This document shows, piece by piece, positions 52,316-52,560 of a stretch of 64,000 nt of DNA; positions within the stretch are counted from its first letter, which is position 1, and the number at the start of each line of letters is the position of its first letter. The translations under genes were made by a program, and so were the position numbers. The stretch lies in NCBI RefSeq assembly GCF_024502345.1, contig NZ_JALDNN010000001.1; one strand, given 5' to 3'. Under the pieces are notes generated by a model that ran no database searches, had not been told where the DNA came from, and saw only the letters and a list, made by a program, of their open reading frames with translations. The DNA is from Escherichia coli (GTDB lineage: Bacteria > Pseudomonadota > Gammaproteobacteria > Enterobacterales > Enterobacteriaceae).

Positions 52316-52560
52316 AGAAGTTCCTTACACATAAAAAAACGGCCAACGTCGGAAGACGTCAGCCGCTGCTTTTTATGCATAGACCTCGCCTTCCGGCAAG
52401 GTCTCACTTACAACAAAAAAGGAATACGTCTGCGTATTCCTTTCGGGTTGCCCGGTGACCGGATGTGGTTTTTCACACATCGTAATGACGATCGACCGGC
52501 AATGAAGTTACTCCCCTTTGCAGGTAACAAAGTATGACAGACCATTCAGCCAGTCAATGG
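52316..52560 (-). promoter_or_regulatory. alx 5' leader: yybP-ykoY-type (Mn2+-responsive / alkaline-pH-responsive) riboswitch-like element with leader hairpins
   Basis: Roughly 240-nt untranslated leader containing GGGGAGTA, a hairpin ggaatacgcagacgtattcc followed by a T-run, and further stem-loops before the start codon; alx is a known yybP-ykoY target in E. coli. Confidence 0.6.

What the first reader, a model, noticed from the sequence alone, without database searches (positions are those of the whole stretch)
52316..52560. Structured alx leader (yybP-ykoY-type riboswitch) with an internal terminator-like hairpin
The ~240-nt 5' UTR of alx (TerC family) contains the GGGGAGUA motif typical of the yybP-ykoY Mn2+ riboswitch, followed by a hairpin with a T-run (ggaatacgcagacgtattcc-tttttt) and a further hairpin just before the ribosome-binding site. 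This is consistent with transcription/translation attenuation control responding to Mn2+ or alkaline pH.
Basis: partly seen in the sequence, partly recalled or inferred. Interest (0 to 1): 0.35.

Follow-up and report, generated by a model that had tools for sequence, protein, structure and literature searches.

The report
The known alx manganese/pH riboswitch

Summary
The features are real and lie on the minus strand. The GGGGAGUA motif is at 52516-52509. A hairpin plus U-run is at 52443-52415, and a second hairpin plus U-run is at 52365-52333, just before the alx ribosome-binding site. The window is E. coli, and the region differs from K-12 at 1 of 301 bases. It is therefore the published alx leader (PRE / SraF), a manganese riboswitch of the yybP-ykoY family that also responds to alkaline pH.

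This is a false negative. The crystallised E. coli mntP aptamer also scores below Rfam's cutoff (41.6 vs 45 bits). The Rfam model requires a P2 helix, which alx lacks; alx has a three-way junction.

A covariance model built from 65 non-Escherichia alx leaders hits only 52522-52395 (117.9 bits, E~2e-29). Covariation across 69 species supports P3.1, P3.2, the base of P4, the P6 terminator and the helix that competes with P6.

Two corrections. The 5' UTR is 207 nt, not ~240; 52523-52560 is promoter plus an upstream hairpin. The internal P4 terminator is confined to Escherichia and a few relatives, because P4 ranges from 12 to 305 nt. Verdict: correct, already known, low interest.

The parts
52552..52557 (-). 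-35 hexamer TTGACT of the alx promoter
   Evidence: ATTGAC is 80-90% conserved at a fixed distance from GGGGAGTA in 79 leaders, including Serratia and Hafnia. The simple sigma-70 scan did not call it because the -10 matches only 3 of 6.
52529..52534 (-). -10 hexamer TACTTT (TATTTT in most genera), 17 nt after the -35
   Evidence: Position-specific conservation across 79 leaders.
52522..52522 (-). Transcription start (+1, U1), inferred
   Evidence: It lies 7 nt after the -10. Published residue identities (A11, C36, A37, C58, C73/A74, A137; termination ~108-110 and ~190) all fit with n = 52523 - coordinate (sequence; PMC12153347; PMC9472077).
52395..52522 (-). Mn2+ aptamer, nt 1-128, three-way junction (P1.1-L1-P1.2 / L2 cap / P3.1-L3-P3.2 / P4)
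   Evidence: Custom covariance model R1, built from 65 non-Escherichia leaders: 117.9 bits, E 1.7e-29, the only hit in window plus the mntP locus. Covariation.
52509..52516 (-). GGGGAGUA (nt 7-14): top of P1.1 and the 5' strand of metal-binding loop L1
   Evidence: Invariant in 69 of 69 aligned leaders. Present upstream of alx in 78 of 80 species. Shared with mntP.
52500..52504 (-). L2 capping loop (nt 19-23, CAUUG) at the position where canonical family members have helix P2
   Evidence: The segment between U18 and C24 is 4-6 nt in all 69 leaders, so no P2 exists anywhere. A C19.G23-closed 3-nt loop is reported in crystal structure 9JGM (PMC12934788).
52452..52499 (-). P3 leg: P3.1 (nt 24-34 with 62-71), L3 UCAUUAC (nt 35-41 = 52488-52482), P3.2 hairpin (nt 42-61)
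   Evidence: P3.1 is 99.3% paired with 5 of 10 pairs compensatory. P3.2 is 92.3% paired with 5 of 6 compensatory. L3 is UCAUUAC in 57 of 69 leaders, with C36, A37, A40 and C41 invariant.
52411..52450 (-). P4 (nt 73-112). It contains intrinsic terminator B: hairpin 52443-52418, U-run 52420-52415, release at about 52415-52413.
   Evidence: Terminator scan and inverted repeat I1. The P4 base is 99.3% paired with 3 of 4 pairs compensatory. About 46% / 43% termination in vitro at pH 7.2 / 8.5 (PMC9472077). Single copy in E. coli genomes.
52396..52409 (-). [quoted passage not shown]
   Evidence: Invariant in 69 of 69 leaders. This strand pairs either with nt 2-18 (aptamer closed) or with nt 133-142 (P5).
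52381..52404 (-). P5 hairpin (nt 119-142, GGAA loop), which sequesters the P1.1/L1 3' strand in the OFF state
   Evidence: Present in the minimum-free-energy fold. Inverted repeat I5. 91.4% paired across species, with the inner 7 pairs at or above 96%.
52387..52394 (-). 5' strand of the antiterminator (nt 129-136, GGAAGGCG); pairs with 52358-52351
   Evidence: Inverted repeat I7. 99.3% paired, with 3 of 8 pairs showing changes on both sides, e.g. G-C to A-U in 10 species.
52351..52358 (-). 3' strand of the antiterminator (nt 165-172, CGUCUUCC); the same bases form the left arm and loop of P6
   Evidence: It is mutually exclusive with P6.
52333..52365 (-). P6, intrinsic terminator D: hairpin nt 158-183 plus U7 (52339-52333)
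   Evidence: Terminator scan. 93.1% paired with 3 compensatory pairs. A hairpin end followed by a U-run is seen in all 79 leaders (77 by pattern, plus L011 and L079 by eye). About 13% / 10% termination in vitro (PMC9472077).
52322..52326 (-). Shine-Dalgarno AAGGA (nt 197-201)
   Evidence: A198-A201 are at least 90% conserved. In the minimum-free-energy fold, nt 197-199 and 202-207 pair with nt 16-18 and 8-13.
51350..52315 (-). alx coding sequence (321 aa, TerC family)
   Evidence: ORF list. Pfam TerC at 181.8 bits. RefSeq names it 'TerC family membrane protein Alx' and 'Mn(2+) exporter Alx'.

Best explanation
This is the E. coli alx riboswitch, also published as the pH-responsive element (PRE) and as the small RNA SraF. 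It is a cis-acting ON-switch that raises production of the TerC-family Mn2+ exporter Alx when cytoplasmic Mn2+ rises, as it does at alkaline pH.

Transcription starts at 52522 on the minus strand. The first 128 nt form a three-way-junction Mn2+ aptamer. An outer stem (P1.1-L1-P1.2) carries GGGGAGUA. A P3 leg carries loop L3 (UCAUUAC). A variable hairpin, P4, completes it. A 3-nt cap sits where canonical family members have helix P2.

[quoted passage not shown] The segment GGAAGGCG is then free to pair with CGUCUUCC. That prevents the P6 terminator from forming and leaves the Shine-Dalgarno sequence open, so alx is translated.

Without Mn2+, the 3' strand of P1.1/L1 is captured in hairpin P5 and P6 forms. 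The released 5' strand (GGGAGU...CUU) pairs with the Shine-Dalgarno region, so translation is off and some transcripts end at nt ~190.

Independently of the signal, the distal part of P4 plus its U-run is a partial intrinsic terminator at nt ~108. It caps output before the aptamer is complete.

What is shown here: the elements, their conservation and covariation, and both competing helices. What is shown in the literature: the Mn2+ and pH responses, termination, and the crystal structure. What is inferred: the order of events during transcription.
For: Identity: the window is E. coli. The region is >=95% identical in 5,419 of 5,426 complete genomes and differs from K-12 MG1655 at 1 of 301 bases, in the P3.2 loop at nt 55.

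Structure:
- The minimum-free-energy fold reproduces the published inactive conformer (P3, P4, P5, P6, Shine-Dalgarno paired to nt 8-18), with z = -7.8.
- In 69 species chosen by the Alx protein rather than by the leader, P3.1, P3.2 and the base of P4 are 92-99% paired, with 13 of 20 pairs showing compensatory changes.
- The antiterminator is 99.3% paired with 3 compensatory pairs. P6 is 93% paired with 3 compensatory pairs.
- Sliding the pairing partners by 1-3 columns drops pairing to 30-44%.
- Model R1, built without any Escherichia sequence, scores 117.9 bits at 52522-52395 and hits nowhere else.
- On mntP the same model aligns only the shared GGGGAGUA...GAGACC shell.

Context: the downstream gene is TerC family.

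Literature:
- Translational reporters are induced 21-fold by Mn2+ and 68-fold by alkaline pH; transcriptional reporters rise only ~2.7-fold with Mn2+ (PMC10197570).
- Mn binding is a prerequisite for the pH response; the aptamer is a three-way junction; termination sites are at nt 110 and 190 (PMC12153347).
- In vitro termination is ~46% at site B and ~13% at site D (PMC9472077).
- A Mn-bound crystal structure, 9JGM, exists (PMC12934788).
Against: - Rfam 15 RF00080 gives no match at gathering score or at E<=10, even on the aptamer alone.
- P1.1 and P1.2 never vary, so covariation cannot test them.
- When P1 is enforced, the nearest-neighbour model keeps P6 and does not form the antiterminator. 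It puts the closed-aptamer state about 20 kcal/mol above the OFF state. The ON state therefore depends on tertiary and ligand energy and on kinetics that I cannot compute.
- Pairing between the Shine-Dalgarno region and L1 is only 70-79% conserved, with no compensatory change.
- The published co-transcriptional probing found only modest Mn-dependent differences in the expression platform (PMC12153347).
Confidence: 0.93

Rival explanations
1. The leader works mainly as a transcription attenuator. Mn2+ or pH chooses between the P6 terminator and the antiterminator, and control of translation is secondary.
For: P6 with its U-run is conserved in all 79 leaders. The competing antiterminator helix covaries. 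P6 terminates transcription in vitro (PMC9472077). The transcriptional reporter rises somewhat at alkaline pH and with Mn2+ (PMC10197570).
Against: Termination at site D is only ~13% vs ~10% at pH 7.2 vs 8.5 in vitro (PMC9472077). Transcriptional reporters change ~2.7-fold with Mn2+, against 21-fold for translational reporters (PMC10197570). The Shine-Dalgarno region is sequestered in the OFF fold.
Confidence: 0.2
2. It is a pure pH sensor, as in the original PRE model. Alkaline pH changes RNA polymerase pausing, and therefore the folding path, with no ligand involved.
For: This is how the element was first described (Nechooshtan 2009, as cited in PMC9472077 and PMC3874183). The large energy gap between OFF and ON folds implies kinetic control.
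Against: PMC9472077 found that pauses are shorter, not longer, at alkaline pH. PMC12153347 reports that Mn binding is a prerequisite for the pH response. Citrate chelation cuts pH induction from 69-fold to 9-fold (PMC10197570). The invariant L1 and L3 metal-site residues would have no explanation under this model.
Confidence: 0.05
3. The terminated ~108-nt and ~190-nt transcripts (SraF) are the functional products and act in trans as small RNAs. Control of alx is incidental.
For: The RNA was first found in a small-RNA screen as SraF (PMC9472077). There are two efficient release points, and nearly half of transcripts end at nt ~108 in vitro.
Against: The P4 terminator is absent from most genera that keep the rest of the leader. 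The conserved parts are the ones needed for cis switching. I found no trans target reported in the papers read.
Confidence: 0.05
4. It is not related to yybP-ykoY at all, and GGGGAGUA is a chance resemblance, as the negative Rfam scan would suggest.
For: No RF00080 hit at any threshold tried. No P2 helix. L3 differs from the family consensus.
Against: Both strands of L1 (GGGGAGUA and GAGAC) and the order P1.1-L1-P1.2-P3.1-L3-P3.2-P4 match mntP. The positive control also fails Rfam's cutoff. The gene context is TerC, as for other family members. A Mn-bound crystal structure shows the conserved metal core (PMC12934788).
Confidence: 0.02

Closest known systems
E. coli K-12 alx leader = PRE (pH-responsive element) = SraF (Nechooshtan 2009; Dambach 2015; PMC9472077; PMC12153347; PDB 9JGM)
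   Same: It is the same locus. 300 of 301 bases are identical, from the ygjR stop codon to alx codon 5. All published landmarks map with no length change.
   Different: One base: nt 55 is C here and A in MG1655 (window 52468), in the capping loop of P3.2.
E. coli mntP riboswitch (canonical four-way-junction yybP-ykoY, PDB 4Y1M)
   Same: L1 on both strands (GGGGAGUA / GAGACC). A P1.1 switch helix. A P3.1-L3-P3.2 leg followed by a P4 hairpin. It is a translational ON-switch for a Mn2+ exporter (PMC12153347).
   Different: mntP has a P2 hairpin, while alx has a 3-nt cap. L3 is ACAUACU in mntP and UCAUUAC in alx. mntP has no internal terminators and is not induced by pH alone (PMC10197570). Neither covariance model recognises the other aptamer: RF00080 gives nothing on alx, and R1 gives 5.4 bits on mntP.
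Transcriptional yybP-ykoY Mn2+ riboswitches (L. lactis yoaB, X. oryzae, B. subtilis yybP/ykoY)
   Same: The metal-binding L1/L3 core, and the logic that the 3' strand of P1.1 is shared with a downstream alternative helix. ykoY is also a TerC-family gene (established knowledge; PMC12153347 introduction).
   Different: Those have four-way junctions and act mainly through a single terminator. alx acts mainly on translation and carries a second, signal-independent terminator inside the aptamer.
Classical intrinsic (Rho-independent) terminators
   Same: P4-distal and P6 are both G+C-containing hairpins followed by U6-U7, and both release RNA polymerase in vitro (PMC9472077).
   Different: Both lie inside a 5' UTR. 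One is embedded in a ligand-binding domain, and both are only partly efficient.

Membership tests
yybP-ykoY Mn2+ riboswitch (Rfam RF00080) | Covariance-model score at or above Rfam's gathering cutoff (45 bits) | tested here: not met
   No match at gathering score or at E<=10 on 401 nt or 146 nt. The control also fails: the crystallised E. coli mntP aptamer scores 41.6 bits, below 45. This operational criterion is therefore unreliable for enterobacterial members.
yybP-ykoY Mn2+ riboswitch (Rfam RF00080) | Conserved L1 loop: GGGGAGUA on the 5' strand and GAGAC on the 3' strand, flanked by P1.1 and P1.2 | tested here: met
   Both strands are present and invariant in 69 of 69 leaders. They align to the same elements of mntP.
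yybP-ykoY Mn2+ riboswitch (Rfam RF00080) | L3 loop of consensus ACAUACU between P3.1 and P3.2 | tested here: inconclusive
   A 7-nt asymmetric loop sits in the right place, but its sequence is UCAUUAC (57 of 69 leaders). The CAU core and the conserved A37 are kept. PMC12153347 treats this as an 'alx-like' L3 variant. A chimera (6CC1) and the native structure (9JGM) are reported to bind metal.
yybP-ykoY Mn2+ riboswitch (Rfam RF00080) | Four-way junction with a P2 hairpin | tested here: not met
   Only 4-6 nt lie between U18 and C24 in all 69 leaders, so there is no P2. The literature describes alx as a three-way-junction variant of the family (PMC12153347, PMC12934788). I file it as a divergent subclass, not as a canonical member.
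yybP-ykoY Mn2+ riboswitch (Rfam RF00080) | The 3' strand of P1.1 alternates between the aptamer and an expression-platform helix | tested here: met
   CCUUGC pairs with nt 2-8 (aptamer closed) or with nt 133-139 in P5.
yybP-ykoY Mn2+ riboswitch (Rfam RF00080) | Located upstream of a Mn-homeostasis membrane protein (TerC, MntP/UPF0016, P-type ATPase) | tested here: met
   alx matches Pfam TerC at 181.8 bits.
yybP-ykoY Mn2+ riboswitch (Rfam RF00080) | Direct, selective Mn2+ binding that changes expression | not testable with these tools
   Literature only: reporters (PMC10197570), probing (PMC12153347), and smFRET plus crystal structure 9JGM (PMC12934788).
alx-type (three-way-junction) Mn2+/pH riboswitch = PRE / SraF | Sequence identity with the characterised K-12 element, upstream of alx | tested here: met
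   300 of 301 bases identical. It lies between ygjR and alx, as in K-12.
alx-type (three-way-junction) Mn2+/pH riboswitch = PRE / SraF | Match to a covariance model of alx-type aptamers from other genera | tested here: met
   R1 scores 117.9 bits, E 1.7e-29, the single hit in 76 kb.
alx-type (three-way-junction) Mn2+/pH riboswitch = PRE / SraF | L3 = UCAUUAC and an L2 capping loop (C19, G23, A114) | tested here: met
   All are present in the window.
Intrinsic (Rho-independent) terminator | Stable stem-loop immediately followed by a U-tract (P4-distal and P6) | tested here: met
   Two sites found, with 12 and 13 pairs and with T6 and T7 runs, against 0.4 expected. In vitro release is reported in PMC9472077.

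The most novel reading that the evidence does not exclude
The terminator inside aptamer helix P4 is a recent acquisition confined to Escherichia and a few neighbouring genera, in a helix that is otherwise free to vary and is a landing site for repeats. Its ~108-nt product carries L1, the whole P3/L3 leg and P4, but not the P1 3' strand. This product could have a function of its own, for example as a trans-acting or metal-buffering small RNA, rather than being only a constitutive brake on alx.
Probability: 0.08. Interest if true: 0.4.

Novelty: already known. Interest (0 to 1): 0.12.

Why it matters
The biology is established, so the value here is mostly practical.

1. A negative Rfam scan must not be read as refutation for this family. 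The current RF00080 model misses the whole alx-type subclass and scores even the crystallised mntP aptamer below its cutoff. This probably explains why none of the RefSeq records I inspected annotate any RNA feature in the ygjR-alx spacer.

2. The cross-species survey adds detail to the published picture:
- Every helix of the three-way junction and both competing platform helices are supported by covariation.
- No species has a P2.
- P4 tolerates anything from a 12-nt hairpin to 300 nt of inserted repeats.
- The much-discussed terminator in P4 is lineage-restricted, so it is not part of the conserved switching mechanism.

Tried and rejected
- Rfam RF00080, tried at three settings: no hit. I reject this as evidence against the interpretation, because the mntP control also fails the cutoff.
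- A fifth P1.2 pair, A20-U113, that I had drawn: 35 of 69 species do not pair there, and the crystal structure instead has C19.G23 closing L2 (PMC12934788). I dropped it.
- Constrained folding with P1.1/P1.2 enforced did not produce the published antiterminator and kept P6. Nearest-neighbour energies cannot model the ligand-bound state, so I tested that helix by covariation instead.
- My strict ungapped terminator detector called P6 in only 33 of 79 leaders. That was an artefact of internal mismatches in P6. A pattern test plus inspection gives 79 of 79.
- A 22-codon upstream ORF (AUG at nt 143, stop overlapping the alx AUG) looked like a translational-coupling device. Only 11 of 79 leaders have any such ORF, and the starts shift. 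It is probably fortuitous.
- The idea that the P4 hairpin is a dispersed repeat: it is single-copy in E. coli genomes.
- The Genes & Development 2009 paper (PMC2779765) is not held. Its content is cited only through later papers.

Full report
**What is there.** The feature lies on the minus strand. alx is the 321-aa ORF at 52315-51350. It is a TerC-family protein (Pfam 181.8 bits). The gene upstream on the same strand is the oxidoreductase ygjR (53602-52598).

- GGGGAGTA at 52516-52509.
- The hairpin ggaatacgcagacgtattcc plus T6 at 52440-52415.
- A second hairpin plus T7 at 52365-52333, immediately before the AAGGA Shine-Dalgarno (52326-52322) and the ATG (52315).

The terminator scan finds exactly these two sites, against 0.4 +/- 0.6 in shuffles. 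The leader folds far better than shuffles (z = -7.8). An independent inverted-repeat scan returns each helix.

**Which organism and locus.** The 401-nt region is >=95% identical in 5,419 of 5,426 complete E. coli genomes, and always lies between ygjR and alx. Against K-12 MG1655 it differs at one base in 301 (nt 55, window 52468, in a hairpin loop). It is therefore the experimentally characterised alx leader, published as SraF, as the pH-responsive element (PRE), and as the alx Mn2+ riboswitch. RefSeq records, including the curated K-12 record, annotate no RNA feature there.

Rfam 15 reports no RF00080 (yybP-ykoY) match. This holds at gathering threshold on the whole window, at E<=10 on 401 nt, and at E<=10 on the 146-nt aptamer alone.

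I ran the E. coli mntP leader as a positive control. Its aptamer has a crystal structure, yet it scores 41.6 bits, below the family cutoff of 45. The printed model has pairs for P2, P3 and P4 but none for P1. Published work states that alx lacks P2, has a divergent L3, and carries a terminator in P4 (PMC12153347). So the negative result is a limitation of the model, not evidence about the RNA.

**A fair replacement test.** I collected 80 alx loci from different Enterobacterales species using the Alx protein as the query, so that leader conservation was not presupposed. GGGGAGTA lies upstream of alx in 78 of 80.

I built a covariance model from 65 non-Escherichia aptamers with the three-way-junction structure. 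It hits the window once, at 52522-52395 on the minus strand (117.9 bits, E 1.7e-29), and nothing else in 76 kb.

With filters off, its best alignment to the mntP leader is weak (5.4 bits) but falls exactly on the mntP aptamer. It aligns only the shared shell: GGGGAGUA, GAGACC and the P1 stems. The two E. coli aptamers thus share the L1/P1 shell and the order of elements, but differ inside.

**Structure by comparison.** Results on 69 distinct leaders:

| Helix | Cells paired | Pairs with compensatory change |
|---|---|---|
| P3.1 | 99.3% | 5 of 10 |
| P3.2 | 92.3% | 5 of 6 |
| P4 base | 99.3% | 3 of 4 |
| Antiterminator (GGAAGGCG / CGUCUUCC) | 99.3% | 3 of 8 |
| P6 terminator | 93.1% | 3 of 13 |
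| P5 | 91.4% | none (left arm invariant) |

- Sliding the partners by 1-3 columns collapses pairing to 30-44%.
- P1.1 and P1.2 are invariant, so covariation says nothing about them.
- Pairing of the Shine-Dalgarno region with the L1 5' strand is present in the E. coli minimum-free-energy fold. It is only 70-79% conserved.
- No species has a P2. The L2 position is 3-5 nt everywhere, and L3 is UCAUUAC in 57 of 69.

**Boundaries.** A -35 (TTGACN), a 17-nt spacer and a -10 (TAYTTT) are conserved at a fixed distance from the aptamer, out to Serratia and Hafnia. This puts +1 at 52522. The published residue identities and termination positions all fit this numbering (PMC12153347, PMC9472077). The 5' UTR is 207 nt.

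**The internal terminator.** In vitro, about 46% of polymerases stop at the P4 site (~108 nt) and about 13% at P6 (~190 nt). There is almost no pH dependence, and NusA enhances termination at the first site (PMC9472077).

My survey adds that P4 is always a hairpin, but its length ranges from 12 to 305 nt (median 37). In 33 of 79 leaders it is 25 nt or shorter. A U-run of 5 or more at its 3' side occurs in only 11 of 79, namely Escherichia, Pseudocitrobacter, Lelliottia and a few others. The P6 hairpin plus U-run is present in all 79. So the P4 terminator is lineage-restricted and not part of the conserved switch. It is single-copy in E. coli, not a dispersed repeat.

**Mechanism.** The most likely mechanism is the published one.

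- With Mn2+ bound, L1 docks on L3 and the P1.1 helix stays closed. The antiterminator can then replace P6, and the Shine-Dalgarno sequence stays open.
- Without Mn2+, P5 captures the P1.1/L1 3' strand and P6 forms. The freed 5' strand masks the Shine-Dalgarno sequence.

Reporter data show that control is mainly translational: 21-fold with Mn2+ and 68-fold at alkaline pH, against ~2.7-fold for the transcriptional reporter with Mn2+ (PMC10197570). Alkaline pH acts by raising cytoplasmic Mn2+ and by sensitising the aptamer (PMC10197570, PMC12153347, PMC12934788).

In the nearest-neighbour model the closed-aptamer state is ~20 kcal/mol less stable than the OFF fold. That fits a kinetically controlled, ligand-stabilised switch, but I cannot compute this step.

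**Verdict.** The proposed refutation test gives a false negative. The element is already known in detail, so interest is low.

Noticed in passing
window 18351-18727 (+): Bacterial RNase P class A RNA (rnpB): 318.6 bits, full length.
   Followed up: no
window 58460-58935 (+): Five tandem copies, about 100 nt apart, of the naRNA4 (CssrE) family. This is a REP/BIME-type repeat cluster, scoring 60-74 bits per copy.
   Followed up: no
window 52528-52593 (inner arms 52537-52546 / 52556-52565): A nested inverted repeat lies directly after the ygjR stop codon and straddles the alx -35 (I2 and I3). The inner 10-bp stem changes on both sides in Kosakonia (CACATT / AATGTG vs GACCATT / AATGGTC). That suggests an RNA hairpin at the ygjR 3' end, possibly its terminator, overlapping the alx promoter.
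   Followed up: partly
window 52575-52604 (+): The best sigma-70-like match in the region (TTTACA, 18 nt, TATAGT; 10 of 12) is on the plus strand, pointing antisense into ygjR. It may be chance.
   Followed up: no
L003 (Escherichia albertii), about 1123-1500: The P4 hairpin is duplicated, and a ~170-nt REP/BIME-like element sits between the two copies. This makes P4 217 nt while the rest of the leader is unchanged.
   Followed up: partly
L014 (Siccibacter), L033 (Franconibacter), L026 (Phytobacter diazotrophicus), L047 (Erwinia persicina): ERIC-like repeats are inserted in the leader. In L014 and L033 they are inside P4 (186 and 305 nt). In L026 and L047 they lie between or within the P6 terminator and the Shine-Dalgarno sequence. 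P3.2 also carries ~40-60-nt insertions in L016, L026 and L055.
   Followed up: partly
L024 (Atlantibacter sp. RC6) and L075 (Rouxiella aceris), upstream of position 1501: Natural loss of the sensor. In L024 the aptamer core (P3 and P4) is deleted, leaving GGGGAGTCACTTC joined to CTTGCCGGAAGGCGAG. L075 keeps only a P6-like terminator hairpin and U-run before alx. The sister species A. hermannii (L027) has the full leader.
   Followed up: no
window 52381-52311 (-), RNA nt 143-211: A 22-codon ORF ([22 protein letters not shown]) runs through P6, and its UGA stop overlaps the alx AUG (AUGA). Only 11 of 79 leaders have any ATG-ORF ending at the alx start, and the starts differ. It is probably fortuitous.
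   Followed up: yes
window 52525-52412 (-): The only full-length sub-threshold Rfam similarity is to RF02617 SSRC10, a 'Streptococcus sRNA' (18 bits, E 0.17). Its consensus contains GGGAGuagC...CGUCaaUA...gaGaC plus a terminator, so that family may itself be a Mn-riboswitch-like leader filed as an sRNA.
   Followed up: no
L002 5462-5558 (E. coli K-12 mntP leader): The crystallised mntP Mn2+ aptamer scores 41.6 bits against Rfam 15 RF00080, below the 45-bit gathering cutoff. The model aligns P2-P4 only. Standard annotation would therefore miss both E. coli Mn riboswitches.
   Followed up: partly
alignment A1, RNA nt 19 (window 52504): C19 was proposed in a 2026 preprint to form a pH-sensing C19.A114+ wobble. 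It is C in 56 leaders, G in 11 and U in 2 (Pantoea, Pluralibacter and relatives). G23 and A114 are invariant. Those species would be natural tests of the proposal.
   Followed up: partly
window 52468: The single difference from K-12 MG1655 across 301 nt is nt 55, C instead of A, in the P3.2 capping loop.
   Followed up: yes
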